Source: an uncultured Dehalococcoidales bacterium (GTDB lineage: Bacteria; Chloroflexota; Dehalococcoidia; Lucifugimonadales; Lucifugimonadaceae). Taken from it: a DNA stretch of 54,636 nucleotides. The first letter of the stretch is position 1. The number at the start of each line of letters is the position of its first letter. The translations under genes and the position numbers were made by a program. The notes below the pieces were generated by a model, which was not told where the DNA came from, made no database searches, and saw only the letters and a program-made list of their open reading frames with translations. Of this stretch, positions 1 through 51,588 are shown piece by piece. Where the stretch lies: the NCBI GenBank assembly GCA_964435915.1, contig CAYTAO010000004.1:226-54861 (forward strand). Direction: 5' to 3'.

Positions 1-398
1 ATCCAGCCCGAAACATTGCCCGGCACCATTGGCGCGATCGGGCCCGTCTCAGCATTGAGGTGGTCATACATCTCTGGCTGTGCGGCATTTGGTGCGTGCC
101 CCGAGAAGTTCAACGCTCGTGTGCGGCCCTCTTTTGCGACGTAGACCATCCCGATGCCAATACCGCCTGATCCCGACATGTACGGTTCGGCGACATTGAG
201 CATGGCTGCTACTGCTACCGCGGCGTCGAAGGCGTTTCCACCGTCTCGCAGTACGTCCACACCGGCTCGAGAGGCGTACGGGTGTGCTGAAGCCACCATG
301 CCGATCTAACCGGTTGCCGGGGCACGAGTCGAACGCCCGTGGGTCGTGGCACCTTTAGGGAATATCGTGCTGGACTCGATATTGTCGACCTGATTCAC
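1..398 (-). pseudogene. Gamma-glutamyltransferase (Ntn-hydrolase) family, 5' part; runs off the window start; in-frame TAG at 306-308
   Basis: Manual translation from GTG at 398: VNQVDN...[54 protein letters not shown]...VPGNVSGW, a typical GGT N-terminus. It could instead start at ATG 299 as an intact but N-terminally shortened gene. Confidence 0.8.
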
Positions 399-1238
399 AG
401 TACTGGCCTTTCGATTCGCCTTCGCGCGTTGCTGATAAACCAGCCCCGAGAGCTGGTCGCGTGATTCAATTTTTTGTTTGTCGCTTCCGTAAGCCATTGA
501 GTAGTGGCCTTTATACCCGAAGTTTTCGAGACGTGTGAACAGATTTGTGAAGTTGAGATTGCCTTCACCGGGAACGAGATGGACCTCGTAGTCGCCGGCA
601 TTGTCGGCGAGCCGTACCTCGCCGATGCGATCAATTCCGAACTCATTGAGAAAGCCATCTATCCCATCAGGGACCAGATGCGAATGGTTGGCAGTGAACG
701 CCCAGCCCAAATACTCGGCTGGAATCTCATCAAAGTACTCTCGAAGCTCTTCAACGGTATGGGCTATGTAGTGTATTTCGGCCCTGTCGGGTTCGAAGTT
801 CAAGTTCTCGAGCAAGATTCGCTGTCCGGTGTCGGAACCGTACTTGCTGATTCGTTTCAGCCGCTCGATCGAGGCCTTTTTTCGCTCGGGTATGTCACCT
901 GAAAAGTGATATCCGGCGTGCACAACCGTCCATGCGCAGTCGAGTTGGTTGGCGAGATCGACACTCGCTCGCATGTACTCCTCAACGGCACGCGAAACGT
1001 GTGGCGAGAACTCAGCGACGTTTACGGCTGAAAGAGTGTGCAGTCCTATGGAAATACCATTCGATTCGCATATTTTCCGAACTTCGCGCGATCGCTCGGG
1101 TGTGAATGTGTCCATGTGATTGGGACCCGCGTCGGCGTTGAAATCAAGAAAGAAAAACTCGTTATCAATCGCCCACTGAATGGCGTCTTCCAGCCGAGTT
1201 TTTCCAGCGTCGAAACCTATTCGATCCTTCAACGACAT
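306..1238 (-). CDS. Sugar phosphate isomerase/epimerase (xylose isomerase-like TIM barrel); C-terminal ~40 aa probably read-through into the GGT N-terminus
   Basis: VVHAG, ILLENL, HSHL and DNAGDYEVHLVPGEG metal-binding motifs of AP_endonuc_2-type proteins. Confidence 0.8.
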   Translation of the reverse strand: MSLKDRIGFDAGKTRLEDAIQWAIDNEFFFLDFNADAGPNHMDTFTPERSREVRKICESNGISIGLHTLSAVNVAEFSPHVSRAVEEYMRASVDLANQLDCAWTVVHAGYHFSGDIPERKKASIERLKRISKYGSDTGQRILLENLNFEPDRAEIHYIAHTVEELREYFDEIPAEYLGWAFTANHSHLVPDGIDGFLNEFGIDRIGEVRLADNAGDYEVHLVPGEGNLNFTNLFTRLENFGYKGHYSMAYGSDKQKIESRDQLSGLVYQQRAKANRKASTVNQVDNIESSTIFPKGATTHGRSTRAPATG

Positions 1239-1310
1239 TCACGTGTTCCTTTTCTTGTGTGCGGCAGTGCCGATGTTTTTACAAATTCTTCCAGGCGATG
1301 AACCGTTCGT

Positions 1311-2750
1311 TTAGCTCCAGTTCTCGTAGAGTCGGCTGTTTTCGAGATTTATCACCTCGTATAGGAGTCCACTGGCTGCCGCTGCATCCTTGCCATCTTC
1401 GAGCACCAGCCACGTACCGCCTCTACCAATCGCCCTGCCGTTGAGCATGATCAACTCACCGCCGACCAACGACATTGATGCCTTCCCTGTTCTCGGGTTC
1501 ACTATCGTTACGTCGGCATCAGCGCCTTCGGAGAAATGTCCCTTGTTAAATAGCCCTAGCATCTGTGACGGCGTATAACTGAGCTTGGTAACGGCTTCAT
1601 TCATGCTGAGTGCACCGAAAGCCACAAGCGCCATAGACCGCTCGATAGCCACGTTTCGTGGTAGCGACCCGCCATCGGTCGATATAGCGTCGACCCGGAA
1701 CGTCCCATCGTCGTATTTTGCGGTCGCAAGGCTAAAAGCACTGGTCGGCGGGTTCACAGGGAAGCTGAGAGAAGCATCGGTCGAAGCGGTCTCCCAGATA
1801 TCGACTGCTTCCTGCCCGGTAACCAGCACTACTCGACCGCCACGTTCAACAAGTGCAGATCCATAGCCATCGAGAAGCGCAGTTTTCACTCCTTCGTCGG
1901 TCGTTGGATAGCCTCGTGCCTTCAAGCAATTCTGGGCGACGTTGTAGACGAGATCGCCGTTCTCATCGCACTTCCCATTCGTACCGTTCGCCTGTGCTAG
2001 GTACGCCTCGGTGACCCACTGCGAGCGCATCTGCTCGATGATCCCGAGTGCTTCCTTCACTTCCTCCTGCGGGTCGTCGATCATGCCGCGCGTGTACGAA
2101 TTGATGTGCGCTACGTGTAGACGACCTTTGCCAGTGATCCCCGGCACCTCTCGAAGCCCGGTCATATCGCTACCGGAATCCTTGGTACCAACGTGGAAAG
2201 CCACCCAGGCAAGGTGGTCGTTGGCGGCATTTACAACGTTGCTGGAAGCTTCCGGTGTAAATGGATGGTAGCCGCCCAGCATTTTCACCCCGATTCCGCC
2301 ACGCTTTTTGACGTCGGCGATCACATCTGTGAGAGTCGCGGATCTCGGGTCGTCTTCTGAAATAGTAGAGTGCGGCACAAGGCCCATCAGCGAAGCAACG
2401 ATCCGACCCGCCCCGCGCGTAACCATGCCCTCCGCCATCGCGGTCGGGTCGCCAGCAAGATCGAGAGCCGTAGTGGTTCCCGATTCGACGAGCATGGCGT
2501 GTCCGAGTGCCCTATCGACACTTCTGTTGAACGGACTCGAGAGATGGGCATGGGTGTCGATATGGCCCGGCATTACCATCTGGCCAGAAACATCAACGAT
2601 GTCATCGGCTTGCTCAAGTGCGATGTTTTCGGCCACTAAAGCAATCTTGCCGTGCCGAATCCCAACGTCGAATTGACCGTCGATACTGTTTTTCGGGTCA
2701 ACTACTCGGCCGCCCTTGAGTACCGAATCAAATTTCTGAGAAGTTACCAA
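1311..2750 (-). CDS. Metal-dependent amidohydrolase (dihydroorotase/FwdA-like), paralog 1
   Basis: LKGGRVVDP, PGHIDTHAH, AISTDGG and GADADVTIV motifs. Start moved to TTG 2750 to match the paralog length; the ORF-track extension to 2897 is a low-complexity intergenic stretch. Confidence 0.85.
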   Translation of the reverse strand: MVTSQKFDSVLKGGRVVDPKNSIDGQFDVGIRHGKIALVAENIALEQADDIVDVSGQMVMPGHIDTHAHLSSPFNRSVDRALGHAMLVESGTTTALDLAGDPTAMAEGMVTRGAGRIVASLMGLVPHSTISEDDPRSATLTDVIADVKKRGGIGVKMLGGYHPFTPEASSNVVNAANDHLAWVAFHVGTKDSGSDMTGLREVPGITGKGRLHVAHINSYTRGMIDDPQEEVKEALGIIEQMRSQWVTEAYLAQANGTNGKCDENGDLVYNVAQNCLKARGYPTTDEGVKTALLDGYGSALVERGGRVVLVTGQEAVDIWETASTDASLSFPVNPPTSAFSLATAKYDDGTFRVDAISTDGGSLPRNVAIERSMALVAFGALSMNEAVTKLSYTPSQMLGLFNKGHFSEGADADVTIVNPRTGKASMSLVGGELIMLNGRAIGRGGTWLVLEDGKDAAAASGLLYEVINLENSRLYENWS

Positions 2751-2843
2751 TAGTCCAGATCCCTGCCTTGAGCGGTTAGTGTGTCGCGTTTGGGCGAATT
2801 TTGAATTGCGTACGGGGATTCTACAGAGGCTTGCTAGTTTGTA

Positions 2844-2904
2844 GTAACGGGGGCGTAACGAAAGCGGTAATCGAACGGTAACGGTTACGGTAACCACTCC
2901 GTAA
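2844..2904. promoter_or_regulatory. Six phased GTAA direct repeats in a divergent intergenic region; candidate transcription-factor binding array
   Basis: GTAA starts at 2844, 2855, 2867, 2878, 2890 and 2901 (spacing 11,12,11,12,11). Confidence 0.4.
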
Positions 2905-3053
2905 TTTTCACTGTCCGAATATACCTATATCGAAGGCGTGCCAAGGGATTCAGAAATAACTAGAATGGTTGCCTGCCGCATGTTGCGAATGAATCTCTTG
3001 GCACGTTTTCGCGTCAGAAGCCTGAGAATTGAAGACAAATGGAGAAATAATTA

Positions 3054-3849
3054 ATCTCGAACAAATGACTCCTGCTCGCGATGATGTTTGGACTTATCGT
3101 ACTGGCAATTGCCGGATGTATTAGTGGAGGCGGTGAATAGGAAACCGCACCAGTAACCACAAAACGACCATCGCATCTACAGTGTCTCCCGGGCCGTCAC
3201 CAACGACGAAACCCAGTGCTTCCGGATCTACATCCACGCCCGTTCCCGGTGATGAAAAATTGATATCGAGAACAGGCATGCTTGAAGTACGAGTGACAGA
3301 GGCACCGGATCCTTTGATCACCGTTGTATATGTAACAACCGACAACATCGAGGTTTCGGCTACCAGCGAAGGCTGGATCTATGTAATCGATGAAGAGATC
3401 ACGTTCGAGTTAGTTGACGATTTCAAGGTCGATAAATGCCTGGTAGGCGGGCAACGCCAGGGCTTCCTGTTCAAACCAGTCATTAAGCTCGCGTCACGTG
3501 ATCCGGGTGAGATCGGCGATGAAACTGTTGAGCTAACCGACAAGCACGAAAAGCGAATCCAATCCCTCGACCAGTACCGATGAGAGTTACTCCGCCGGCG
3601 CAGCCAACGGCTGTTCCGGCAACAGCGACCCCGGTTCCGCCAACGTCGGCATCAGAACCAACAGCAACGCCGACCGCTACTCCTGACGCGATTGGCGCGT
3701 TCTTCCTCGACATCCTTGAACCGGTAGATGGAATTGAAGTCGTATCGGTAGACAGATTCGAAGTGATCCGCAGAACTTCTGTTGATGCACTTGTATCCGT
3801 GCAACGACACGTTCGTTCGGTGCCGGCACTTATCGTGGGGCAGGTCTAA
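3054..3849 (+). pseudogene. Degraded lipoprotein (DUF4382-like segment, Pro/Thr-rich linkers, C-terminal Ig-like segment)
   Basis: GGAG RBS at 3041. Frame reads (atc)SNK*LLLAMMFGLIVLAIAGC-ISGGGE* (lipobox; stops at 3066 and 3138). Later pieces in other frames: GMLEVRVTEAP, PTAVPATATPVP, FLDILEPVDG...TSVDALVSV. Confidence 0.6.
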
Positions 3850-3868
3850 ACTCCGCGTCTTACAACTG

Positions 3869-5140
3869 ATGATGACAACCTCAGAAACAACATCTTCGAA
3901 TCACCACGATTCCTCCGACCAGAAAGGCCGTCCGGGCTTTGACGCCCTGATCGTCTACGCAGGAAGAGGCTTGCGAGATATGGGGCGAGGTCTGATCGCC
4001 GTAATTCTGGCGATCTATCTTGCTGAAATCGGGCTCTCCATTCCGCAGATCGGTCTCGTATTGGGTGCCAGCCTGGTCGGGGGTTTCCTGTTTTCGATAG
4101 TTGTTATGTTCACTGCGAACACGATCTCTCGGCGCAACTGGTTCGTGATTATTTCGGTGATTACAGCGCTCGCAATCCTCATGTTGTTTTTCACTGAAAA
4201 CGTCTGGCTGATCGGGCTCGCATCCTTCTTTGGATCGTATGCAGGTAGCGGGATGCACTGGGGACCGAGTCTCCAACTCGAACAGTCGTCGCTGACTGAA
4301 GTTACGAACTCCCAGTCTCGTACCCGCGCGTTTTCGAATCTGTCCGTATCGTCAGCCAGTGGCAGAGCAATCGGCAGCGCGCTAGTCGGTGTCGCCACAT
4401 ATTTGATAGCTGGTCGTGACTGGGAAGTGGTCGACGCCTACAAAATTCTTCTTGCCATATATCTGGGCATCAACCTGCTTAATGCCGCCATATACCTCGC
4501 ATTATCGCCGGCAGTTGAATCGAAAGCCAGCACGGGTGCTTTACTTGTGAATCCGCTCAAGACGCCCTCCAGAAAGCCGATTCTGAAGTTGTCGGGTCTG
4601 TTCGGTGTCGATTCTTTTGCGGGCGGGATGATCTTCGACGCCTTCTTCGCTCTGTGGATGCTCGAGAAGTACGGCATGAACGAGGGGATGATCGCTGCCA
4701 TCATGATAGCCACCCAAGGGCTGAATCTGGTTTCTATATGGCTGGCGCCCTCAGTTGCCAGACGCATTGGGCTGCTCAACACGTTCGTCTGGACCCAGGT
4801 TGCCTCGAATATCTGCCTGATAGCGTTTGCGTTCGCACCGGGTGCGATTATTGCGGCGAGCATCTGGATGCTTCGCGGAATATTCGACGAAATGGACGTA
4901 CCGACGAGGCAGTCGTATATGATGGCCCTTGTGCCACCAGAAGAACGTACGGTGATGGCAGGATCAGCAAATCTGGGGCGAGGACTGGGTCGAATGCCCA
5001 GTTCAACCGTGACCGGGTTTCTCTGGGCCGGGGCGTACACCGTCGCTCCCTGGCTGGTCGGTGGCGGTCTGAAGTTGGTATACGATTTCGCCATCTACTT
5101 CTCGTTCAGGAACGTGAAGGTACCCGACGATATCGATTAA
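3869..5140 (+). CDS. MFS transporter
   Basis: About 12 hydrophobic segments; LFGVDSFAGG and MDVPTRQSYMMA motifs; likely start ATG 3869/3872. Confidence 0.9.
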   Translation: MMTTSETTSSNHHDSSDQKGRPGFDALIVYAGRGLRDMGRGLIAVILAIYLAEIGLSIPQIGLVLGASLVGGFLFSIVVMFTANTISRRNWFVIISVITALAILMLFFTENVWLIGLASFFGSYAGSGMHWGPSLQLEQSSLTEVTNSQSRTRAFSNLSVSSASGRAIGSALVGVATYLIAGRDWEVVDAYKILLAIYLGINLLNAAIYLALSPAVESKASTGALLVNPLKTPSRKPILKLSGLFGVDSFAGGMIFDAFFALWMLEKYGMNEGMIAAIMIATQGLNLVSIWLAPSVARRIGLLNTFVWTQVASNICLIAFAFAPGAIIAASIWMLRGIFDEMDVPTRQSYMMALVPPEERTVMAGSANLGRGLGRMPSSTVTGFLWAGAYTVAPWLVGGGLKLVYDFAIYFSFRNVKVPDDID

Positions 5141-6570
5141 CCGCGACCGGCGTAGATCATCGCCTGAGTTATATCGAGAAGCTGGTAGTCGATTCCGGTG
5201 GCCAACACAGCCTTTTCACCCCGCTCGGTCGTGAGAATCGCCCCGCCCGATCCGACGACCCTGCCAGCCATCATGATCAGGTTTCCACCTACAATTCCGT
5301 AGGTTGCCTTGCCTGCATCAGGATCGATCACCGTCAGGTCGGCGTCTTTACCTTCGGAAAGCCTCCCTTTCGAGCCCAGTCCCATCATTTTTGCAGGGTT
5401 AAGGCTCAGTTTGAGAACCATTTCGAGCGGTTCAAGAGCTCCAAACTTCACAAGTCTCATCGCCTGCTCGATATTCACGTTGCGCGGTAGTGCACCGGCA
5501 TCACTTCCGATCGCGTCGATGATGAACTCGTTCTCGGAGTTTTTCGCGGCCGTGAGCTGAAAAGCTGATGTAGCGCTGTTCACTGGGAAGCTCAGAGAGA
5601 CATCCGTTTTACCTTCGTCGAACAGCTGGACACCTCGTTCACCCGTCACAAGAGCCAGCCCGGTGCGAGTCTCCTCAACAGTCGACGCGTAGCCGTCACG
5701 AAGCGCAGCTCTAATCCCTTCGTCGGTCGTTTCGTAGTTCTGAAGTCGCAGGCAGTTCCCAACAACATCGGCCAACACGTTGCCGTTCTCGTCACATTTT
5801 CCAAGAGTGAAGTTTGGTCGCGCGAGGTGAACCTCCGAAACGACCTGGTCCCTCAGGTCATCGACGATGCTCAGTGCTTCATGAATTTCTTCTTCGATCG
5901 AAAGAATTGATCCCCGGGTGTAGGCATTTATGTGGGCGATATGGAGCCGCCCTGTGTTGCCGAGTATTCCGGGAATCTCGCGCAGTCCATCGAGCCTGGA
6001 GCCGGTTCCGGTGGTTCCAACGTGAAAAGCCACGTACGCTGCCATCTTGTTGGCAGTAGAGATAAACCTCGCCGTTTCGTCCGTGGTGAACGGGTAGTAG
6101 CCACCCCATAGCTTGATTCCGAGAGATCCAGCCTCCAACGCCCTCTCAACGATCTTGTCAATCACGTCAGGACTCAACCGGCCCTCTGGTACCGTCTCAC
6201 CCGGCTTGAGGTAGCCCAAACTGCCGACGTTCACCCCGGAGCCCCGTGCCGCCACGCCAGCTACCAGTGTTTCCATACTTCCGCCGAGGTCGATAACCGT
6301 CGTTGCGCCGGCTGCCGCTACCATTTGAAGTCCCAGGCCACTGATACGCCCCATATCAGAAGCATTCGCTACATGAACGTGCGTGTCGATCATTCCCGGC
6401 ATGACCCATTGACCGACCGCGTCGATCGAGTCCTGAGCCTGCGCCGGATCAATGTTTGGCTCGATCCGTTCGATCACGCCGTTGGTAACAGCCACGTCGG
6501 CCGTTTCATCGCGGCCCGATTCGGCATCGAGGACCCTTCCGTTTCGAATTAGTAGATCGTAGTGAACCAA
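5137..6570 (-). CDS. Metal-dependent amidohydrolase, paralog 2
   Basis: YDLLIRNGRVLD, PGMIDTHVH, AIGSDAG and GKDADLTV motifs; colinear with paralog 1. Confidence 0.9.
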   Translation of the reverse strand: MVHYDLLIRNGRVLDAESGRDETADVAVTNGVIERIEPNIDPAQAQDSIDAVGQWVMPGMIDTHVHVANASDMGRISGLGLQMVAAAGATTVIDLGGSMETLVAGVAARGSGVNVGSLGYLKPGETVPEGRLSPDVIDKIVERALEAGSLGIKLWGGYYPFTTDETARFISTANKMAAYVAFHVGTTGTGSRLDGLREIPGILGNTGRLHIAHINAYTRGSILSIEEEIHEALSIVDDLRDQVVSEVHLARPNFTLGKCDENGNVLADVVGNCLRLQNYETTDEGIRAALRDGYASTVEETRTGLALVTGERGVQLFDEGKTDVSLSFPVNSATSAFQLTAAKNSENEFIIDAIGSDAGALPRNVNIEQAMRLVKFGALEPLEMVLKLSLNPAKMMGLGSKGRLSEGKDADLTVIDPDAGKATYGIVGGNLIMMAGRVVGSGGAILTTERGEKAVLATGIDYQLLDITQAMIYAGRG

Positions 6571-6684
6571 GAAGTAATTCCTTACCCAATTTACGATTTA
6601 TGCGTCAGAATTGAACGCAGTTTATTCACTAATTACCAAACCTGAAGCCATCGCGACATCGATCGCTGGGCTAATGATCTCGAT

Positions 6685-7290
6685 TTGTATACAAAACCAG
6701 TACCTGTAATCCAGCTCCGAACAAGCCTCACACTCGGTGCGCTCATCGGTCTCGCGGTTGTGCTTGCCAGTTCGATATCGCTGTTGTACGCGCAGGACAC
6801 CCAGACCGAAGAGGCCATTGTTGGCTACCGAATCATCGGCGAGGATGTCGTTGGACCGTACACGATCCAGGCCCAGGTGAGTCCGGTCGCTCCGATACCC
6901 GGTATTTCACGGTTCGCAGTGCGAGTGCGAGATGCCGTCAGTGGTGAAGATATTCCCGTCGCGATTGTGCGCATTTTTGCGACGCCTTCGGAAAAGGGCG
7001 AAAAACAGTACTCGCCGGCACTCAATTCGCCATTCGACCCGGTGTACTACCTGGCGCAGCTCGATGTGGATCACCCCGGAGTATGGGCTATCGATATAGA
7101 AGTAGAGTCTGAACTCGGAACCGGGGCTACCGTGATGTCGATTTTGGTAGCGGACCGGAGTCGGAGCGCAGAAAGCTGGGCTGCAGGACAGGCGCTATTT
7201 GTGCTAGTTACACTTTCGTTTGTCGTTGGTATTTCGTGGGTCTGGTACTCGTCAAAAAAAGCACTCAAGCGTCGAGATCAGCAACGCTAG
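6685..7290 (+). CDS. Exported/membrane-anchored hypothetical protein (possible YtkA/FixH-like Ig fold)
   Basis: N-terminal signal-like helix, beta-rich core ending PGVWAIDIEVES, C-terminal TM helix with basic tail. Confidence 0.65.
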   Translation: MYTKPVPVIQLRTSLTLGALIGLAVVLASSISLLYAQDTQTEEAIVGYRIIGEDVVGPYTIQAQVSPVAPIPGISRFAVRVRDAVSGEDIPVAIVRIFATPSEKGEKQYSPALNSPFDPVYYLAQLDVDHPGVWAIDIEVESELGTGATVMSILVADRSRSAESWAAGQALFVLVTLSFVVGISWVWYSSKKALKRRDQQR

Positions 7291-7510
7291 CCAGATATCG
7301 TGAGAATTTCTGGTTGCGGTATCGGGGGCTCACTTTCAGTACGAGCAGGGTTAAATTTCTTGACCGACCGTGTTCGCAGTGATACTTTTGCCCCATCTTT
7401 CCGTGGTGCGCGACAACCAATAAGGAACCGGCTTTCCCGGTGCGTCGTCAGCGCACCCAGTAAGGCGAAATCGGGTTCAATCTCCAATTTCGACTAAATA
7501 GGAGCACGAT

Positions 7511-8284
7511 ATGACAGAACCAGTACCTTTTGAGGCCGAAGAGATCACTCCCAACGAGGGTGGGCGAGGGATAGTCGCTGAATCAGCGCCGTTCGTGGCT
7601 TCAGTTGAACGACTGATAATCAGAGTTCGCAGCGCGAAGCTCAACGATCATGGTCAAATGATAGAGAACCTAGAGGCGTGGATCGACCGAGCCATGCATG
7701 GTGGAATGGATGTTCTGCGAGATGGAGATAAGATCCTAGCTACCCTGAACGCCAACGTTGGCGAAATGATTCACTCTCGCACAATGCTGCGAAGAATCGT
7801 GTCGCCGATGGTTGGCCTGACTCTCCTGGCTGGTGCTCTTGCCGCAACCACGGTGACAGTTTCGGGTGTCGAGGCGCTGTTCTTATCGACTCCACTTGAG
7901 ATCGTGTTTGCAGCGGTCATCTTCGGTATCGCCGGTAGCGCGTTTGCAGTATTGCTTCGCACGGTAACCATGCAGCTTGAGTACACAGAAAAAGTGGCGT
8001 TGTTCATGGTTGGACTTGCACGTCCTCTGGTTGGTGGAGTCCTTGCTCTGGCAGTGTTCGCATTGTTCGGTGCCGGAATCATCTCGCTTCCGTTGGTCTC
8101 CGATCAGGAAACAACTACCCGAGTGTCATTCCTGGCTGGTAGTGGTGGAAGCGGAATCTTCGCCGGTCAGCTGGCACTGTTTGCTTTCGCATTTGCTGCA
8201 GGAATCTCAGAAGGATTCCTCACACCCCGCCTTTCACGAGGTGTCGCTCGAGTAGCTGACAAGTTCAGCACGATGACTCAGTAA
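7511..8284 (+). CDS. Hypothetical integral membrane protein
   Basis: AGGAG RBS at 7500-7504; about 4 TM helices; ARPLVGGVLA and FAFAAGISE motifs. Confidence 0.75.
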   Translation: MTEPVPFEAEEITPNEGGRGIVAESAPFVASVERLIIRVRSAKLNDHGQMIENLEAWIDRAMHGGMDVLRDGDKILATLNANVGEMIHSRTMLRRIVSPMVGLTLLAGALAATTVTVSGVEALFLSTPLEIVFAAVIFGIAGSAFAVLLRTVTMQLEYTEKVALFMVGLARPLVGGVLALAVFALFGAGIISLPLVSDQETTTRVSFLAGSGGSGIFAGQLALFAFAFAAGISEGFLTPRLSRGVARVADKFSTMTQ

Positions 8285-8303
8285 TTCGAAAACAGCGAAA
8301 ACG

Positions 8304-8345
8304 AAAAGGCCGGTTTCGTAACTTACGGGATCGGCCTTTTTATTT
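8304..8345. terminator. Bidirectional intrinsic terminator
   Basis: AAAAGGCCGGTTTCGTAA-C-TTACGGGATCGGCCTTTT long hairpin with A and T tracts, between convergent ORFs. Confidence 0.8.
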
Positions 8346-8346
8346 G

Positions 8347-8487
8347 TCAGTTTCTGTATGGCGGTTGGCTATAACTCTGAACCGATTGCGGCTCGTCAAT
8401 CACCGGCACGTCATCTGTAAGCGCCCAGAAGTTCACAGCGGCTGTAACGACCTGCAATATTGCGAGAACGATGGACATCCCTTTCAT
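8347..8487 (-). CDS. Possible small membrane or secreted protein (~46 aa)
   Basis: MKGMSIVLAILQVVTAAVNFWALTDDVP...; one hydrophobic helix; stop lies directly at the bidirectional terminator. Confidence 0.4.
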   Translation of the reverse strand: MKGMSIVLAILQVVTAAVNFWALTDDVPVIDEPQSVQSYSQPPYRN

Positions 8488-8633
8488 CGACGAACCGCGT
8501 CGTACGCGGGGGTGCTGACTCCAGGCTCCTACTTCTGCCGCGATACTTTCCATTCGTGAGCCGAGCATCGATTCGCTTGCTGGCGTTATTCAGATCCTCA
8601 CCGGGAATTGTTTGAGTCAAGCAACGTTCAGGT

Positions 8634-9665
8634 CTAGCCCTTGAAATTCGCAAGCTGGTCGGCAAACGTGAACACGGCCGGTAGCCCACCCGTGTGGAGG
8701 AAGATGACTGTTTCATTGTCGTTAAATCCTCCTTCAGCGACCTGGTCGATCAGTGCGGCCATCGCCGTTCCCGTGTAGTTCGGGTCGCAGATAATCGCAT
8801 CGGTCTGTGCAGCGATATGGATCGCCTCAGCGACCTGCGCGGTCATCACGCCGTAGCCCTCGCCAACGTACTGGTCGAGTATTCGCATATCGCTTTCTGT
8901 GAACGTTACGGGTAGGTCGAGCAGTTCCTGAATGTCTTCGGTGTGCTGGAATATGTATTCGCTCAGCGGGACATCGTAGTTCACTGTCACACCTGTGAAC
9001 TTCCAGTCGAGTCCCATCGACTTGGCTGCGATGATTAAGCCAGATATCGAACGACCCGCAACGCCGATGATGTGGACGTTTTTGAGATTGTTTTTTTCGA
9101 TCTGCTCAAGAATTTCAATACCGGCCTGAACGAATCCGACCATTCCGACTATTCGCGGGAACAGGTGCTCTTGAATCAGGTAGGGCTTGTGTCCTTCGCC
9201 TTCGAGTTCTTCTTTCAGCCTGGTTGCGTAGCCTTCTGCGTCCCCTGACTGGTATTCATCGAGCAGGTGCAGTTCGGCTCCGAGGATCTTGTCGATCAAC
9301 AGGTTGCCCTGCACGTTTCGGTTTGCGGCGTTCTTGAGAATGAGAATGTAGCGCATCCCGATCTTGTTGGCTGCTGCTGCCGTCATTCGGGCGTTGTTCG
9401 AGTGATAATCCATGATGTTGAGCATCACGTCGTAACCCTCATCGGCAATATGCGGCATCTCGTATTCGTAGTGACGAGCTTTGTTACCGCCAAATGCAAG
9501 ACCGGTCATGTCTTCGCGTTTGATCCAGATATTCGGACCACCGAGTCGTTCGGTCAGGCGCGGCATTTCTTCGAGAGGGGTCGGCAGATGGGCAAGTCGT
9601 AATCGAGGAATCTTGTCGATGTGGGACTGAAGTTCAGCAGGCGTGAGGATTTTTGTTGTGGTCAT
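8634..9665 (-). CDS. PLP-dependent D-cysteine desulfhydrase/ACC deaminase/cysteate sulfo-lyase family, paralog 1
   Basis: LPTPLE, KREDMTGLAFGGNK (PLP Lys), DPNYTG, FLHTGG. Confidence 0.88.
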   Translation of the reverse strand: MTTTKILTPAELQSHIDKIPRLRLAHLPTPLEEMPRLTERLGGPNIWIKREDMTGLAFGGNKARHYEYEMPHIADEGYDVMLNIMDYHSNNARMTAAAANKIGMRYILILKNAANRNVQGNLLIDKILGAELHLLDEYQSGDAEGYATRLKEELEGEGHKPYLIQEHLFPRIVGMVGFVQAGIEILEQIEKNNLKNVHIIGVAGRSISGLIIAAKSMGLDWKFTGVTVNYDVPLSEYIFQHTEDIQELLDLPVTFTESDMRILDQYVGEGYGVMTAQVAEAIHIAAQTDAIICDPNYTGTAMAALIDQVAEGGFNDNETVIFLHTGGLPAVFTFADQLANFKG

Positions 9666-9796
9666 TGTGAAGGTGCCGGTGGCACTATTTCTCTGAATTG
9701 AAATTTGTCGACCGATTCGAGAATTGTAGAGGTGAACTGTGACCTATGCAGTGCGAGCTATACGGGGATTCGGCTAGGGTAGCGAGATCATGCGAC

Positions 9797-9821
9797 TGTC
9801 ACCCCGATGAAAATCGAGGTC
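9797..9821 (+). repeat. TGTC-tagged REP-like hairpin
   Basis: TGTC-ACCCCGAT-GAAA-ATCGAGGT-C, 7/8-bp stem, 23 nt before the GIY-YIG relic. Confidence 0.55.
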
Positions 9822-9844
9822 AAGCAAACCCACTTCACTAACGA

Positions 9845-9949
9845 ATGAACCACGAGGCACGTTCATATTATGTTTACATGCTCGCTAACAAAGGTCGCAT
9901 AATCTACACGGGCGTAATTGGGGATCTTCATACTCGAACTTGGTAGCAC
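9845..9949 (+). pseudogene. Small GIY-YIG nuclease (YhbQ/UPF0213-like) N-terminal relic
   Basis: MNHEARSYYVYMLANKGRIIYTGVIGDLHTRTW*H matches the YYVYIL..N...LYTGVT.DL..R..QH pattern; TAG at 9944; absent from the ORF track. Confidence 0.8.
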
Positions 9950-10195
9950 ACGTATGCTAGATCAATACCAAGGGGATTGGAGCGTATACCATCGGCATGG
10001 TGATATGCGTGGTGAAGTCGATCGAACGAGAGAAAGTTCGCTTGAAAACGCGGGCTCTTTGGCACGTCGACCCTCTCTACCGGCAGCAATAGTTATCGGA
10101 TTGACCATAATACCGATTTGAATGGTGTTTCGATGGTTCCGGTCAAGACGCTCAGGTTAAGGGTTCGTCTTAGGCTGTTACTGCCGTGCATCCAC

Positions 10196-11224
10196 TCAAT
10201 CCAAAAACTTATCCGCGTGTGCAAATACCTGCGGAAGCCCTCCCGAGTGGATGAAGCAGATGGTTTCTTCAGGGTCGACCCGACCAGCCCGAAACTCGCC
10301 GATCAGTCCTGACATCGACTTACCTGTGTAATTCGGGTCGAGTACGAGTCCTTCGACCTTACCAACCATCATTATGGCTTCTATGACCCGATCGTCTGGC
10401 TCCCCGTATCCCGGACCCATGTAGGCGTTAAGCACGTCGAGATCTGACGCGTCAAGGGAGTGCTCTAGCCCGAACATCTCATCAACCCTTGAGGCGCGAG
10501 TGCCCGTGGTTTTGGGAAAATCCTCGATCTTGCCGGGTGAATACTGAACCGCAGTAGTTCTCCAATCGAGACCTCGATTCTTGCCGTAGAGCTTCAGGCC
10601 TGCAATCGATCGACCCGTAAGGCCCCAGAACCTGACCGGACCCTTAACATCAGCCGCTTCCAACTGTTCTTCGAGTTCTAGGCCAGTCTCGAGAAAGCCG
10701 ATCATGCCCATCACGTCGGCGAACGGATCGTCGGGCATGATATACGGTCTTCCACCCGCCTCAGTTACTTCCGAAAAAATCTTGTCCGCCACCTGTCGTC
10801 CGTACTCGGCAGGAGTCCTGTGTATCTCAGCACCCATCAGTTTGCACAGCAGCAGATTGCCTGTGACTGGCGCAGTAACCATGTCGATCGAAACGAGGTG
10901 GTATTTCAGCCCTACTCTGGCGCAACCTGCCGCGAGAAGTCGAGCCTGATTCGAGTGATAGTGGTTGATGTTAATTACAGTGTCGAATCCACCCTCGATG
11001 ATGTGGGCCATCTCGAACTCGAAGTGCCGACCCTTGTTGCCACCAAATGCCAGGCCCGTAACATCGTCACGCTTCACGAGCATACGGTTCGGAACCGAAA
11101 AACCCTCGTCGATAAGCGTCTGGCGAAGCCGGTCGAGTGCCTCAAGCGGTGTGTTCAGGTGCGACAGCTTGAACCGAGGCAATTCTTTGAGTTTTTGTCG
11201 GATATGTTTTTTAGAAATGGTCAT
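10196..11224 (-). CDS. PLP-dependent D-cysteine desulfhydrase/ACC deaminase family, paralog 2
   Basis: KRDDVTGLAFGGNK, YHSNQAR, LDPNYTGK, FIHSGG. Start placed at ATG 11224; the ORF-track extension runs through REP-like repeats. Confidence 0.88.
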   Translation of the reverse strand: MTISKKHIRQKLKELPRFKLSHLNTPLEALDRLRQTLIDEGFSVPNRMLVKRDDVTGLAFGGNKGRHFEFEMAHIIEGGFDTVININHYHSNQARLLAAGCARVGLKYHLVSIDMVTAPVTGNLLLCKLMGAEIHRTPAEYGRQVADKIFSEVTEAGGRPYIMPDDPFADVMGMIGFLETGLELEEQLEAADVKGPVRFWGLTGRSIAGLKLYGKNRGLDWRTTAVQYSPGKIEDFPKTTGTRASRVDEMFGLEHSLDASDLDVLNAYMGPGYGEPDDRVIEAIMMVGKVEGLVLDPNYTGKSMSGLIGEFRAGRVDPEETICFIHSGGLPQVFAHADKFLD

Positions 11225-11349
11225 TTGTACGAATTGATTTGTCTGAGAACCAAGTCGTCGATTACTTATTCGACTGGGCATGAAAGCGTGGTTTTGCGAG
11301 ATAGATACAAGACGATCCAGCACACGATTGTGACCGACGTTTTCAACGT

Positions 11350-11425
11350 TGTCATCCTGAACTCGATTCAGAATCACGGGTGGGAATATTGCTGTAGTTG
11401 TCACCCTGAGTTCATTTTCAGGATC
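11350..11425 (+). repeat. Two direct copies of a TGTC-tagged palindromic REP-like unit
   Basis: TGTCATCCTGAACTCGATTCAGAATC (11350-11375) and TGTCACCCTGAGTTCATTTTCAGGATC (11399-11425). Confidence 0.7.
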
Positions 11426-11720
11426 AATATGGCTTGGAACGGGGAATTGAACAATTCAATAGCGATTGTTGCGCAGGCACGGCGAGTGGTCATCGTGGGA
11501 TTGAGGTGCTGTCGAAAGAGCGCGCTTTAACTCTGTATTTCTATGGTTGCTTATCGCCTCACAGCATCAACACAAAACAGCTCGTGTTAGCAGATAAATA
11601 AGGGTGTCAGATTTCAGAGGAACACCCCAGTTCAATAGACACACGACCCTAGCTGGAGCTTTCGATGTTAATATCACTGGGCATTTTCATTGGATTTGTT
11701 GTTCAGGAGGATCGAGATTC

Positions 11721-12893
11721 ATGGCAGGACCACTGCGGGTCGGATTAGTTGGCGTTGGTCAGCGTGGTGTTCAGCACATCCGAGCGATGGTCCAGATGCA
11801 GAAGGATGAAATCGTCCAGGTCACTGCGCTTGCCGATCCATACCCCGAGAACCTTACCGATAGCAAGATAACCAGTTATGTTCCTGAGTACTCGTCAATC
11901 GGCGTAAAGATGTTCAATAGCGCCGATGCCATGATCGAGTCGGGGCTGGTCGATGCCATGTGGTTCGTCATCCCACCGAACCAGCACCGAGGTGAGATCG
12001 AGCGAGCTGCGGAGCGTGAAATCGCCATATTCGCCGAGAAGCCGCAGTCACTGTTTCTCGATGACATCATCAGTCAGGATGCTGCCATTACGAAGGCTGG
12101 CGTGCCGAGTACGGTCGTGTTCCAGATGCGACACGACCGTGGCTACTCGGATATCGCCGCCTACTTGAGCGACAAGTGGGTGGCCGCGATGACGATGATC
12201 GCCGAGGGAGCTGTGGAGGGGCACGGCACCAAGCACACTCACACCGAAGATCAGGGTGGGCCCGCCAATCGAGTTTGGACTGCGAACCGTGCGTGGGCGG
12301 GTACTTCAATCGTAGAGGCTGGTATTCACCAGACCGACATCATGCGTTATTGGTCGAACGACGATGTAGATTGGGTACGAGCTATTTACACTAATCGACC
12401 GGTCGATCTGTATGAAACCGAGGGCGATAATCCGATCGCGTACACGGTTACATACGGAATGAAAAAAGGCGGAGTCGCAAATATTTTGTTCACAAAACCG
12501 GCGCGCTCGTACTATCTTGGTCGATTCGACTACATCATCCACACGCACGGCACAATTAAGCTCGAAGACGACATTGTCGATTACACATTCGAGGGCGACT
12601 GGCCTCCGAAAGAAAAGCCGACGATAGATCAGGTTCGCAAGGTAATTTCACCGGGTCCACACTATAGCGCGATGGGTGATGAGAGCACTCTCGGAATCAG
12701 CGAGGCGTTCGCCACATCTATCGTCGAGAACAAGCCCGAAAACCGACTGAATTCGTTCAACTCCTCGATCAACTCACTTGCTTCTGTGCTTGCAGCAAAT
12801 ATCTCGAACGAACTCGATGGCGAGAAGATCGTAATCGACGAGTTCATAAATGACGATAAATACGCCCAATACCGGTTAAACCAGAACAGGTAA
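11721..12893 (+). CDS. Gfo/Idh/MocA family oxidoreductase
   Basis: AGGAGG RBS at 11705; LRVGLVGVGQRG Rossmann motif, IFAEKP, EAGIHQTD. Confidence 0.9.
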   Translation: MAGPLRVGLVGVGQRGVQHIRAMVQMQKDEIVQVTALADPYPENLTDSKITSYVPEYSSIGVKMFNSADAMIESGLVDAMWFVIPPNQHRGEIERAAEREIAIFAEKPQSLFLDDIISQDAAITKAGVPSTVVFQMRHDRGYSDIAAYLSDKWVAAMTMIAEGAVEGHGTKHTHTEDQGGPANRVWTANRAWAGTSIVEAGIHQTDIMRYWSNDDVDWVRAIYTNRPVDLYETEGDNPIAYTVTYGMKKGGVANILFTKPARSYYLGRFDYIIHTHGTIKLEDDIVDYTFEGDWPPKEKPTIDQVRKVISPGPHYSAMGDESTLGISEAFATSIVENKPENRLNSFNSSINSLASVLAANISNELDGEKIVIDEFINDDKYAQYRLNQNR

Positions 12894-48278: not shown

Positions 48279-49286
48279 ATGTACGTTGGAACCCAGGTCG
48301 GGGCGCGAAACGATTCGGACTTTGAGCAGTGGGCGCAGCTCGGAGTCGTCAACGTCTGTTCCGATCCTCCAGATGACGCTCGTACGTGGACGAAGGATGA
48401 TTTGGCCCGCCACAAAGACAAGCTCGACTCGTACGGCATCACGCTAGATATGGTGCAGATTCCGCTTTCGTCGACGACTCTCGATCGGTCCCAGTCTCCG
48501 AACATCATGCTTGGGAAAAGTCCTGAACGAGATCGTGAAATCGAGGTTATCCAGAACATCATTCGTTTGTGCGGTGAGGTTGGGATTCCTTCAGTTAAGT
48601 ACAACATGAACATCATCGGCATCCCGCGCTCAGAACGTGAGGCGGGCAGAGGCGGTTCGTCTAATTCCACTTTCCGATGGTCAAAGATGAACCATGATGA
48701 CCCAACAACTATCGCCGGAGTTGTTGGTGTAGACGAAAACTGGGAACGCATTGACTACTTCCTCGAGCGTGTAGTACCGGCTGCTGAATCAGCAAAAGTT
48801 CGATTGGCATGCCACCCCCACGATCCCTATACACCAGACGGGTACATGGGAGTAACCCGCGTGCTCGGAACGGTCGACGGCATGAAAAAATTCGTGATGA
48901 TGCACGAAAATCCATACCATGGGTTGAACTTCTGCCAGGGCACGGTGACCGAGATGCTCGATGACCCCAACGAAGAGATCGCCGACGTCATTCGATGGTT
49001 TGGGAGTCGTGAGAAGATTTTCAACGTTCACTTCCGAAACATTCGAGGCCATAAACTCGACTTTATGGAGTCGTTCCCGGACGAGGGTAGCATCGACTTC
49101 ACCGAGATCATCAAGGTTTATCAGGAGGTTGGGTACAAGTACATGCTGATGCCAGATCACGTGCCGTGGATCAGTGGCGATGATCCGCAGGGCACCGCCT
49201 TTGCGTTCTGTTACGGCTACATCTCGGCACTACTGCAGTCGATAGGCGAACCCCGGAAGCAAGCATGGGTAACCAAAGGACCGTAA
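48279..49286 (+). CDS. uxuA: Mannonate dehydratase family (UxuA-like)
   Basis: GGAG RBS; FLERVVPAAE, LACHPHDP, GLNFCQG, VHFRN, LMPDHVP; substrate not established. Confidence 0.85.
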   Translation: MYVGTQVGARNDSDFEQWAQLGVVNVCSDPPDDARTWTKDDLARHKDKLDSYGITLDMVQIPLSSTTLDRSQSPNIMLGKSPERDREIEVIQNIIRLCGEVGIPSVKYNMNIIGIPRSEREAGRGGSSNSTFRWSKMNHDDPTTIAGVVGVDENWERIDYFLERVVPAAESAKVRLACHPHDPYTPDGYMGVTRVLGTVDGMKKFVMMHENPYHGLNFCQGTVTEMLDDPNEEIADVIRWFGSREKIFNVHFRNIRGHKLDFMESFPDEGSIDFTEIIKVYQEVGYKYMLMPDHVPWISGDDPQGTAFAFCYGYISALLQSIGEPRKQAWVTKGP

Positions 49287-49344: not shown

Positions 49345-49501
49345 CCGAACCGCTCGAAAATCGCAACCTAGCGAGTCATCAATAACCCTGAATTAAACCC
49401 CCGGAGTGATAGTGAATCAAGTTCAACATGAGGAAGAAAACGGTTCAGCCTGACAGTTGGCTGTTGTAGGCTGATTCGTGAAATTCATAGGAGAAGCTCG
49501 T

Positions 49502-50005
49502 TTGCCAGACAATCAGGAAACAAACAACCTGGTCGCGTATCGTTCGAAAGTGCGGATTGAGCGTGTAAAAGGCCCGATTCGTAGGGCGTATGTCCCGTCG
49601 CACGACGGTCCGGTCATGCTCGGGGTTCATTCGGAAGTAGCGGAGCACTACGGAGTCGATAACACCAAAGTCGATCCATATACGACGACTCTCGACTATG
49701 TGGTCATGGCCACTGCCGGGTGAATGACCGGAACATTTGGCGGTGCCCTTGAGGCCCGCGGGATTCCGGCTGGCGACGGCTTTCTTATTTCAGAGACAGT
49801 TGGCGAGCTAGAAAAAGAGCGAGGTACGCTTGTAATCAAGCGGATACACGTCGCCTATCAACTGAACGTGGAGTCAGGGCTACTCGCCGAGAAGCAAGAT
49901 GCCATTGAGCGCGCATTCGAGTTGCACCCTGACTCTTGCCCGGTGTACCGCAGCATCTACACCAGCATCGACATCACGAAGAAGATCGAGATCAGCGAGG
50001 GTTAG
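49502..50005 (+). CDS. OsmC/Ohr-like redox protein, probable selenoprotein (UGA = Sec at 49721-49723)
   Basis: AGGAG RBS at 49489 and TTG at 49502. The two ORF-track pieces are contiguous in one frame: TTLDYVVMATAG-U-MTGTFGGALEARG...HPDSCPVYRSI. The UGA sits at the first OsmC catalytic Cys position and CPV supplies the second. Confidence 0.85.
49724..49769 (+). promoter_or_regulatory. Candidate bacterial SECIS hairpin
   Basis: CCGGAA(49728-33)/TTCCGG(49764-69) lower stem; GCGG/CCGC and GCC/GGC upper stem with a bulged U; apical loop CTTGA about 25 nt after the UGA. Confidence 0.65.
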
Positions 50006-50196
50006 GCAGGATAATTCATCGGGTTCGTCTGGGGCTTAACGAATCCAGAGTGACGTGTTGGGTCGCCTGCGGTCAGGAATTTTTCAGTACGGATTATGGT
50101 GATATGGGAAAGGTTTCGAGCAGTGGGTTTTGTTCGAACTTTGTTCGGTTGACGCTTTTTGTTATTCCAGTATCAGCGGTCACACGCACCCGTTAA

Positions 50197-50289: not shown

Positions 50290-51588
50290 CTAGGGCTTGA
50301 CCATCGAGCCGTCGGCTCGCCGTACGGTGTCCCACGCTCCGCCAAACTCACGTTCCTTGAACGGGAACTTAGCTGCCATTTCTTCATCAATATCGATACC
50401 GAGACCCGGCTCGCCTTTAGACCACATCATGCCGTCCTTCAGGGTCGGAGTGCCCGGGAACATCTCGCGAGTGCGTTCGGGCGGAATAGCCGCTTCCTGA
50501 ATACCAAAATTGTAGTTGTTCAGGTTCAACATCAGGTTCGCCGCGTGGCCAACCGGCGAAGTGTCGCCAGGACCGTGCCACGCCGTTCGTACGCTGTACA
50601 ACTCGCCCATTGCCGAGAGCTTTTTAGCAGGCGTAATGCCACCGATCTGCGACATGTGGATTCGGATGAAATCGATCAGGCGATTCTGGATCATTGGAAT
50701 AACCTCGTGCGGGCTGTTCCACAGTTCACCCATGGCAATTGGCGTTGTGGTCTGTTCACGCACCATTCGGAAGTAGGCGTTGTCTTCAGGTGAGAAGAGG
50801 TCTTCGAGGAAGAACAGCTGGTACTTTTCTACCTCTTTTGCGAACCACACACCGAGGATTGGTGGAATACGCTCGTGAACATCGTGAAGAATCTCGAGAC
50901 CGTATCCGAAGCGACCACGAATGTACTCAAATAGACCTAAGGCCGATCGCATGTATGGCTTTGGCTCGAAAACTCCACCGGGATGGGCGTAACGCTTGTT
51001 CTTGTCGTATTCGCGTAACCATGAAGTTACTGCGATCGGACCTTCAAGGGTGTTTTGGTTCGCGGTGTCCAATCCGCCTACAGCTGCGCCCGTGTTGCCG
51101 TAGGTGGCATAACCGGGAGTCGACATCTGAACTCGGACGTGGTGAAAGCCCTGCTCAACGTATGCCTGAACCTTGTCGCCAACTTCTTCGTGCGATTGAC
51201 CAGAGGTATGAACGTATACGGGAGCCGCTTCACGTGCTCGACCACCGAGCAGGTCGTAGACAGGCATTCCTGCCATCTTGCCCTTGATGTCCCAGAGTGC
51301 CTGATCGATACCGGAGAGAGCGTTGTTGAGTACCGGCCCGTTACGCCAGTAGGAAGAAACGTACGACGACTGCCAGATGTCCTCGATATCGGCGACGTTT
51401 CGACCGATCAAGAAGGGTCGCAGGTAATCATCGATGGCTGCTGCAACTGCCGTTGGTCGCTGAGTGAATGTTGCGCAACCGACTCCGTGAAGGCCGGGCT
51501 CGGATGTTTCGATCTTGACGATCACGAGGCGGATATGGTCCGGCTCGGTGAGGATTGTCTTGATGTCTCGGATCGTTACATTGCTCAT
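50290..51588 (-). CDS. Enolase-superfamily D-mannonate dehydratase-like protein (RspA/ManD subgroup)
   Basis: GVGCATFTQR, SYWRNGPV, ALWDIKGK, HVRVQ, LHDVHER, FFLED, AMGE, TAWHGP. Confidence 0.9.
   Translation of the reverse strand: MSNVTIRDIKTILTEPDHIRLVIVKIETSEPGLHGVGCATFTQRPTAVAAAIDDYLRPFLIGRNVADIEDIWQSSYVSSYWRNGPVLNNALSGIDQALWDIKGKMAGMPVYDLLGGRAREAAPVYVHTSGQSHEEVGDKVQAYVEQGFHHVRVQMSTPGYATYGNTGAAVGGLDTANQNTLEGPIAVTSWLREYDKNKRYAHPGGVFEPKPYMRSALGLFEYIRGRFGYGLEILHDVHERIPPILGVWFAKEVEKYQLFFLEDLFSPEDNAYFRMVREQTTTPIAMGELWNSPHEVIPMIQNRLIDFIRIHMSQIGGITPAKKLSAMGELYSVRTAWHGPGDTSPVGHAANLMLNLNNYNFGIQEAAIPPERTREMFPGTPTLKDGMMWSKGEPGLGIDIDEEMAAKFPFKEREFGGAWDTVRRADGSMVKP

What the first reader, a model, noticed from the sequence alone, without database searches (positions are those of the whole stretch)
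49502..50005. Hidden selenoprotein: OsmC/Ohr-like gene with UGA at the catalytic Cys position and a SECIS-like hairpin
Seen: two ORFs abut in the same frame across one TGA (GGG TGA ATG) with no SD before the second ATG. The joined 167-aa product has TLDYVVMATAG-U and DSCPV, matching the two-Cys spacing of OsmC/Ohr proteins. A stem-loop with a bulged U and a G-containing apical loop starts 5 nt after the UGA. No other lesions are present, unlike the true pseudogenes here. Established: bacterial Sec insertion needs an immediately downstream SECIS plus SelA/B/C/D, and OsmC-like selenoproteins are known from environmental bacteria. Inference: this organism decodes Sec, and standard annotation would miss the gene.
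Basis: partly seen in the sequence, partly recalled or inferred. Interest (0 to 1): 0.75.

Follow-up and report, generated by a model that had tools for sequence, protein, structure and literature searches.

The report
Selenocysteine OsmC-fold gene with atypical SECIS
The apparent stop codon that splits this small marine-bacterial gene in two is most likely read as the rare amino acid selenocysteine at the predicted active site of a redox protein, which databases file as a broken fragment and which belongs to a widespread branch separate from the OsmC-like selenoprotein family already catalogued.

Summary
Confirmed. Window 49502-50005 is one 167-codon OsmC/Ohr-fold frame with a single TGA (49721). 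Of 142 DNA loci spanning that column, 141 have TGA, 1 TGC, 0 TGG; distant relatives mostly have Cys (66 of 86 rows). The Trp seen in databases is likely a code-4 miscall. Both halves are under purifying selection, and synonymous change collapses over the 16 codons after the TGA. The genome has selB, selD with its own TGA, selA in two contig-end halves and six more likely selenoproteins. An intact tRNA-Sec is not assembled; synteny places it in a gap. The protein is not in the catalogued OsmC-like Sec family (13 bits against a cut-off of 95; separate clade). Its hairpin (loop CUUGA) fails the bacterial SECIS consensus that 88 of 93 other-type relatives meet. Sec incorporation and enzyme activity are inferred, not shown. 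This scan reported the same subfamily earlier in other genomes. Verdict: new variant of a known kind, moderate interest.

The parts
49489..49494 (+). Shine-Dalgarno-like AGGAGA, 7 nt before the TTG start
   Evidence: read from sequence; relatives have similar purine runs before a start at this position
49502..50005 (+). OsmC/Ohr-fold (Ohr-like) coding sequence, 167 aa when the UGA is read through
   Evidence: PF02566 36.4 bits read through vs 22.3 for the C-half and none for the N-half; AlphaFold pLDDT 94.1; fold matches
49721..49723 (+). In-frame UGA, likely Sec74, at the first (peroxidatic-type) Cys column
   Evidence: 141 TGA, 1 TGC, 0 TGG in 142 loci; Cys in 66 of 86 spanning rows of distant representatives
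49728..49769 (+). SECIS-like hairpin; upper stem 49740-49759 with bulged U 49744 and apical loop CUUGA 49748-49752, 24 nt after the UGA
   Evidence: fold, pair probabilities 0.99 or more, suppressed synonymous change, pair counts
49937..49939 (+). TGC, Cys146, predicted resolving cysteine
   Evidence: C in 119 of 121 rows; 53 of 62 full-length rows of the wider set
50115..50138 (+). Terminator-like stem-loop downstream (weak consensus match)
   Evidence: 3 such sites found vs 1.3 expected by chance
48279..49286 (+). Context: UxuA-like dehydratase gene upstream; neighbour only among close marine relatives
   Evidence: in 28 of the genome loci compared
50290..51588 (-). Context: convergent enolase-superfamily (MR/MLE) gene
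   Evidence: 20 loci

Best explanation
This is one intact gene whose in-frame UGA is likely decoded as selenocysteine, giving a 167-residue OsmC/Ohr-fold protein predicted to work as a selenol/thiol redox enzyme. Shown: the open frame on both sides, UGA conservation, Cys in distant relatives, purifying selection on both halves, nucleotide constraint on the hairpin, and selA/selB/selD in the genome. Inferred: SelB-GTP-Sec-tRNA binds the hairpin 24 nt downstream and delivers Sec (about 0.95 for Sec as the residue). Inferred from Ohr/OsmC chemistry: Sec74 on the long central helix attacks an oxidant, forms a selenenylsulfide with Cys146 and is re-reduced by a cellular dithiol, probably in a homodimer. 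Peroxide as the substrate is about 0.5, since the Ohr/OsmC catalytic Glu and Arg are not kept; conserved H43, D65, R86, R137 and H142 would shape the site instead.
For: Column: 80 of 80 metagenome loci TGA; 15 of 16 GTDB loci TGA, the 16th lacks that part; 24 of 25 class-wide matches TGA, 1 TGC; 24 of 24 family matches and 19 of 19 phylum matches carry one in-frame TGA (column not checked for the 16 phylum-only loci). Cys in 66 of 86 spanning rows of distant representatives; 34 N-halves end at the column and 16 C-halves start right after it. dN/dS 0.05-0.10 (N-half) and 0.07-0.17 (C-half) where computable against 12 relatives; synonymous difference 0-0.30 in codons +1..+16 vs 0.34-0.83 in the flanks. 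In 83 of 135 distinct loci the next codon is CTN, so no standard restart. Machinery: selB over cut-off, selD with CAG-U-AGK, selA as two halves at contig ends. Other in-frame UGA genes at known Sec motifs: SelW-like CxxU, two Prx-like, rhodanese, UGSC-family, DsbA-like. selA found in 56 of 62 carrier genomes. tRNA-Sec intact in 4 of 5 same-genus genomes. Fold: best VIA Z 14.6, rmsd 2.2, 138 aligned to Ta0195; next YhfA-type 1ml8 and AQ1549.
Against: No intact tRNA-Sec in G000: only a 3' half at C18:261-325 with three substitutions (T-stem and discriminator). The hairpin fails the consensus model (my implementation: 3 of 41 type-II sequences pass; the window does not), although that implementation also missed selD, DsbA-like and one Prx in this genome. 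Folding energy against synonymous shuffles is only modest (window z -1.38, p 0.12; a control window scored as many p<=0.05 cases). selA is common in the class (178 of 251) and phylum (155 of 201), so co-occurrence is a weak test; 6 of 62 carriers lack a selA hit, one of them 95% complete (G528). Protein databases show W in 67 of 121 rows, L in 2, R in 1, and I could not read those records' DNA. G000 has some genome-specific nonsense TGAs. No protein-level evidence.
Confidence: 0.85

Rival explanations
1. Sec is the family's reading, but this particular organism has lost its tRNA-Sec to an integration event, so its UGA genes are now silent relics.
For: Only a decayed 3' half of tRNA-Sec is assembled; G000 carries other lesions such as a genome-specific TGA in a phosphotriesterase-like gene and a broken second OsmC-like gene.
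Against: In 4 congeners the order is C8-homologous block, trxA, tRNA-Sec, C18-homologous block; G000's C8 ends in the first codons of trxA, and the rest of trxA is missing too, so the intact copy would lie in the gap. The fragment starts at the anticodon loop, as an attachment-site duplicate would (inference). A contig of run X1 spans trxA plus a full tRNA-Sec at about 90% to a congener (not shown to be this organism). selB, selD and this gene are intact and constrained.
Confidence: 0.07
2. UGA is a true stop and the protein is made as two translationally coupled polypeptides (UGA-AUG restart) that reassemble into the OsmC fold.
For: ATG follows the TGA directly in 50 of 135 distinct loci; databases hold the halves as separate proteins.
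Against: 83 of 135 have CTN after the TGA; the stop is always TGA, never TAA or TAG; the break would delete the catalytic residue in the middle of the central helix 63-85; unsplit Cys forms are interleaved in the same clade.
Confidence: 0.03
3. UGA is read as Trp (or another standard residue), by genetic code 4 or leaky read-through.
For: 67 of 121 database rows have W at the column.
Against: 0 TGG in 142 DNA loci; W proteins come from short contigs (about 3.5 kb or less) and match TGA-bearing loci at up to 97%; members of the same clusters on longer contigs are split instead; UGA ends ordinary genes in this genome; distant relatives use Cys.
Confidence: 0.02
4. It is a selenoprotein, but not a peroxide-reducing enzyme: the Sec74/Cys146 pair serves sulfur/selenium transfer, disulfide exchange or metal handling.
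For: Best structural matches are uncharacterised Ohr-like proteins; the Ohr Glu position (Cp-10) is Leu and no Arg is conserved in the Ohr or OsmC loop positions in the wide set; an Ohr-like protein lacked peroxidase activity in one study (PMC5384416, passages).
Against: The two redox residues and the fold are those of Ohr/OsmC peroxidases; conserved His/Asp/Arg could replace the triad; no conserved neighbourhood points to another pathway. This rival overlaps the best explanation on Sec and differs only on substrate.
Confidence: 0.4

Closest known systems
OsmC-like selenoprotein of the Sargasso Sea and GOS surveys (PMC1088965, PMC2398784; PF02566, motif UxxT; one row in the 2026 inventory PMC13188914); NCBIfam NF041052 OsmC_like_Se
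   Same: Same Pfam fold, Sec at the first catalytic Cys column, second Cys near the C-terminus, downstream hairpin, marine and Chloroflexota occurrence.
   Different: Published sequences read GF-U-LLTQ after a DEP..GG..PAPL segment (supplements), as do NF041052 members I fetched. This one reads AG-U-[ML]xGT..GALEAR with a GVHxxxAEHY helix. 13.3 bits vs cut-off 95; best BLAST E 3.6 to 14 NF041052 members; separate branches (SH-aLRT 99, quick tree); both kinds co-occur in G063, G030, G108.
Ohr and OsmC peroxidases (TIGR03562; PDB 1qwi, 1n2f)
   Same: Fold (VIA Z 11-13, rmsd about 3, about 138 aligned) and a two-residue redox pair.
   Different: Catalytic Glu and Arg not kept; spacing 72; TIGR03562 14.1 bits vs 85.8; Sec instead of Cys.
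Ohr-like group of Meireles et al. 2017 (Ta0195, AQ1549, TM0919, 2pn2; YhfA-type 1ml8)
   Same: Top structural matches (Z 14.6, 13.9, 13.3); Cys pair without the Arg/Glu.
   Different: 12-18% identity only; function of most is untested; this subfamily has its own H43/D65/R86/H142 signature.
Consensus bacterial SECIS (model as summarised in PMC13188914)
   Same: Hairpin in the coding region, loop 24 nt after the UGA, 5-nt loop, stable stem; most relatives have the canonical U-[GGA]-R loop.
   Different: In this lineage synonymous changes (GCG CTG to GCC CTT) remove the first loop G and shift the pairing to GCC-CUUGA-GGC with G at loop position 4.

Membership tests
Bacterial selenoprotein | In-frame UGA conserved in homologs | tested here: met
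   141 of 142 loci
Bacterial selenoprotein | Cys at the same column in other homologs | tested here: met
   66 of 86 rows; 7 of 120 near homologs; one TGC locus, L069
Bacterial selenoprotein | selA, selB, selD in the genome | tested here: met
   selA in two contig-end halves, each under the cut-off alone
Bacterial selenoprotein | Intact tRNA-Sec in the genome | tested here: inconclusive
   only a decayed 3' half assembled; expected site falls in a contig gap; 4 of 5 congeners have it
Bacterial selenoprotein | Conserved hairpin just downstream of the UGA | tested here: met
Bacterial selenoprotein | Selenium in the protein | not testable with these tools
   needs 75Se or MS
Consensus bacterial SECIS model | [quoted passage not shown] | tested here: not met
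   loop CUUGA, pair probabilities 0.99 or more; 3 of 41 type-II vs 88 of 93 type-I sequences pass my implementation
Consensus bacterial SECIS model | Loop 3-9 nt, 16-37 nt from UGA, stem of 4 bp or more, MFE at most -7.5 | tested here: met
   5-nt loop, 24 nt, 7-bp upper stem with one bulge, -23.6 kcal/mol
Catalogued OsmC-like selenoprotein (NF041052 / Sargasso UxxT) | Score over the NF041052 cut-off | tested here: not met
   13.3 vs 95 bits; 0 of 61 family genomes over cut-off
Catalogued OsmC-like selenoprotein (NF041052 / Sargasso UxxT) | UxxT motif | tested here: not met
   U-M-T-G-T; G at +3 in 135 of 135 loci
Catalogued OsmC-like selenoprotein (NF041052 / Sargasso UxxT) | Same clade | tested here: not met
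   quick IQ-TREE, 64 rows: 14 NF041052 rows and 37 rows of this subfamily on separate branches, support 99; long-branch warning given, careful search unfinished
OsmC/Ohr superfamily (PF02566) | Pfam score over cut-off | tested here: met
   36.4 vs 27.5 bits
OsmC/Ohr superfamily (PF02566) | OsmC/Ohr fold | tested here: met
   predicted model; Foldseek E 4.5e-8, VIA Z 14.6
Ohr or OsmC subfamily proper | Catalytic Glu and Arg | tested here: not met
   by sequence position only: Leu at Cp-10, Asp at Cp-9, no Arg at 70% or more before the helix (definition)
Ohr or OsmC subfamily proper | Homodimer and dithiol-dependent peroxidase activity | not tested
   no complex model or assay obtained

The most novel reading that the evidence does not exclude
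A widespread, predominantly Sec-encoding OsmC-fold subfamily that is missing from the selenoprotein inventories, evolved Sec independently of the catalogued family, and in SAR202-type Dehalococcoidia has re-registered its SECIS by synonymous changes into a hairpin without the 'essential' first-loop G, yet is still decoded by the same SelB that reads canonical G-first loops on other mRNAs of the genome. That would be a natural test of the SelB recognition rule in a cultured marine lineage.
Probability: 0.45. Interest if true: 0.6.

Novelty: new variant of a known kind. Interest (0 to 1): 0.4.

Why it matters
It corrects a systematic mis-annotation: hundreds of records are halves or Trp miscalls that lack the catalytic residue. 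It likely adds a second OsmC-fold subfamily to the bacterial selenoproteome, by the inventory's own rule that a different Sec motif makes a distinct subfamily (PMC13188914, section 7). The atypical but strongly constrained hairpin is a concrete case of the non-canonical SECIS class that reviews say is unexplained (12.6% of BSepDB entries lack a canonical one). A cultured relative exists (Ca. Lucifugimonas marina, whose record is the same 93-aa fragment, 77% identical to the C-half), so the claim can be tested. It does not change what is known of Sec decoding in general, and Dehalococcoidia are already known to be selenoprotein-rich.

Tried and rejected
Opposite strand: multiple stops, no gene. 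Rfam over the window: 0 matches. Repeats around the gene: none. ARAGORN and RF01852 found no intact tRNA-Sec in G000; the RF01852 hits were tRNA-Ser/Leu; relaxed intron searches gave only noise. Folding energy against synonymous shuffles was not decisive. A phylum-wide selD baseline was run with too strict an E-value and found nothing even in controls: uninformative; replaced by selA. selA co-occurrence is weak evidence because the baseline is 71-77%. Sequence search of PDB gave only E 0.009 or worse. No conserved neighbourhood beyond close relatives, so no pathway clue. RNA-library contigs cover parts of the gene (X16 49571-49728, 2 differences; X15 49753-49965, 2 differences), but share was small and DNA carry-over is not excluded, so transcription is not claimed. 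No complex prediction was obtained, so the dimer is untested. The careful tree did not finish; the quick tree is reported. The canonical hairpin register fits type-II sequences worse than the shifted one (A2 also held a few type-I rows; related sequences inflate these counts). Literature: searches found no description of this subfamily; 'TGTFGGALE' is absent from the 4 GOS supplements; 'OsmC' is absent from the deep-Sep and BSepDB main texts, one BSepDB supplement and the Haft preprint main text. I could not see the BSepDB database, paywalled papers or bioRxiv supplements, where it may be listed.

Full report
Observation. The window holds an 81-aa and a 93-aa ORF in one frame, joined at GGG TGA ATG. 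From TTG 49502, which has AGGAGA 7 nt upstream, to TAG 50005 the only stop is TGA 49721-49723. Read through, the 167-aa product scores 36.4 bits on Pfam OsmC (cut-off 27.5); the C-half alone scores 22.3 and the N-half nothing. A 7-kb contig of run X3 spans the stretch with one difference, not at the TGA.

What the codon is. I read the column in DNA. All 80 metagenome loci returned (the best 80 of 588 confirmed) have TGA. So do 15 of 16 GTDB loci (the other lacks that half) and 24 of 25 class-wide matches, the other being TGC. Pooled: 141 TGA, 1 TGC, 0 TGG in 142 loci, 135 of them distinct, the window's own included. In a profile search of 50%-identity representatives, 66 of 86 rows that span the column (query left out, one protein counted twice) have Cys, 34 N-halves stop exactly there and 16 C-halves start right after. 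Against this, near homologs in the protein database show W in 67 of 121 rows. These come from short contigs, match TGA loci at up to 97%, and share clusters with split records, so I infer code-4 gene calls; I could not read their DNA.

One gene, under selection. Against 12 relatives dN/dS is 0.05-0.10 for the N-half and 0.07-0.17 for the C-half where computable. In 83 of 135 loci the codon after the TGA is CTN, so a restart cannot be general. The UGA lies inside the predicted central helix, residues 63-85. A control from the same genome: a TGA in a phosphotriesterase-like gene is absent from 3 of 3 congeners, which is how a real lesion behaves.

Machinery. G000 (92.9% complete, 117 contigs) has selB, selD with its own in-frame TGA and selA as two halves at the ends of C17 and C62. 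A coding-potential scan and NCBIfam gave six further genes with UGA at known Sec motifs. tRNA-Sec is the weak link: only a 3' half starting at the anticodon loop, with three substitutions, is assembled at C18:261-325. In four congeners the intact gene follows trxA; G000's C8 breaks off in the first codons of trxA and the rest of trxA is also missing. I infer an assembly gap at an integration site, with about 7% left for true loss. selA is found in 56 of 62 carrier genomes against baselines of 178 of 251 and 155 of 201 (the first tally includes unpublished G244); this is consistent but weak.

The hairpin. It folds at 49728-49769 with loop CUUGA 24 nt after the UGA; the upper pairs have probability 0.99 or more. 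Energy alone is not decisive. Conservation is: synonymous difference in codons +1 to +16 is 0-0.30, and exactly 0 for 4 of 12 relatives, against 0.34-0.83 in the flanks. The family uses two registers. Most have GCG CTG GAR GCG CGY, a stem closing a GGA loop; 88 of 93 pass my version of the consensus model (null 0.40; genome background 0.085). The window's lineage has GCC CTT GAG GCN; 3 of 41 pass. The two codon changes travel together (81 GCG-CTG, 34 GCC-CTT, 3 GCC-CTG, 0 GCG-CTT), mostly within one family, so they are not independent events. The shifted register shows two-sided changes at one pair (CG, UA, AU, GC). Other SECIS-like hairpins of this genome have G-first loops (SelW-like GGAU, Prx GUU, rhodanese GGC).

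How it likely works. The AlphaFold model (pLDDT 94.1) matches OsmC/Ohr structures, best the uncharacterised Ohr-like Ta0195 (Z 14.6, rmsd 2.2, 138 aligned), 1ml8 and AQ1549. Ohr and OsmC use a peroxidatic and a resolving Cys plus Arg and Glu; Ohr-like proteins lack the last two (PMC5384416, passages). Here U74 and C146 are the pair; Leu sits at the Glu position, and H43, D65, R86, R137 and H142 are conserved instead. I commit to a Sec74/Cys146 selenenylsulfide redox cycle, with peroxide reduction as the likeliest job at about even odds.

Comparison with the known. OsmC-like selenoproteins have been predicted since 2005 (PMC1088965: passages and supplement hits; PMC2398784: passage and supplement hits; PMC13188914: passages and parts 1-2 of section 7). 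Those sequences read GF-U-LLTQ, as do most NF041052 members fetched here. This protein scores 13.3 of 95 bits on that model, has no significant BLAST match to 14 members, lies on a separate branch in a quick tree with a long-branch warning, and co-occurs with that family in three genomes. It works like that family but is not a member. My paper searches found no account of it, but BSepDB itself and paywalled work were out of reach. For PMC12013277, PMC13326102 (also section 11 and one supplement search), 10.1101/2022.07.06.499078 and PMC10444878 I saw term passages only. Public records of close relatives are 93-aa fragments named hypothetical or OsmC family, including Ca. Lucifugimonas marina.

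Earlier notes of this scan reached the same reading on other genomes; I had reached it before the look-up, and they are not independent evidence.

Verdict. Real and almost certainly a selenoprotein gene; a new variant of a known kind. Interest 0.4. The most interesting residue is the constrained non-consensus SECIS in a lineage with a cultured member.

Noticed in passing
G000:C18:261-325 and C18:~330-12780 (L156): Decayed 3' half of tRNA-Sec starting at the anticodon loop, followed by about 12.5 kb absent at this site in congeners (peptide ABC transporter-like ORFs by eye): likely an island at a tRNA-Sec attachment site.
   Followed up: partly
G000:C17:1-600 / C62:1-680 (L159, L160): selA is split between two contigs that overlap by TCATCCAAG; the C17 end continues into about 600 nt of 21-29% GC sequence with an N run, suggesting a chimeric join.
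   Followed up: partly
L161-L166, L169: Other likely selenoproteins of G000: SelD, DsbA-like (DYT-U-P), SelW-like (CVP-U), Prx-like (W-U-PYC), Prx (TGG-U), two-domain rhodanese (Y-U-QGG), UGSC-family (D-U-GTC).
   Followed up: partly
L239, L240 (G192, G271): A third OsmC-fold type with UGA at the same column (ALGS-U-TAIT, YhfA-like), 36 bits on NF041052, nested among Cys relatives: a possible further independent Cys-to-Sec change.
   Followed up: partly
G000:C45:10875-11150 (L241): Second OsmC-like gene of G000, of the YhfA type, is broken by stops and frame problems.
   Followed up: partly
L167, L170, L168: In-frame TGAs in a phosphotriesterase-like gene (absent in 3 of 3 congeners), a membrane pyrophosphatase and a CocE/NonD hydrolase look like lesions; the CocE one has a consensus-like hairpin and was not checked in relatives.
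   Followed up: partly
L049-L068: A distant branch (about 33-37% identity, GVQG motif) keeps the UGA with a G-U-C type loop in many members; family f26 carries it in 12 of 13 genomes.
   Followed up: partly
P0059 and L138: A record from a 5.86-Mb contig has Leu at the Sec column while its near-identical sister locus has TGA; error or real loss not resolved.
   Followed up: no
L214, L218 and G000:C18: tRNA-Sec of this genus has C rather than A just 3' of the UCA-A anticodon loop stretch (UUCAAC), unlike other family members.
   Followed up: no
   Followed up: no
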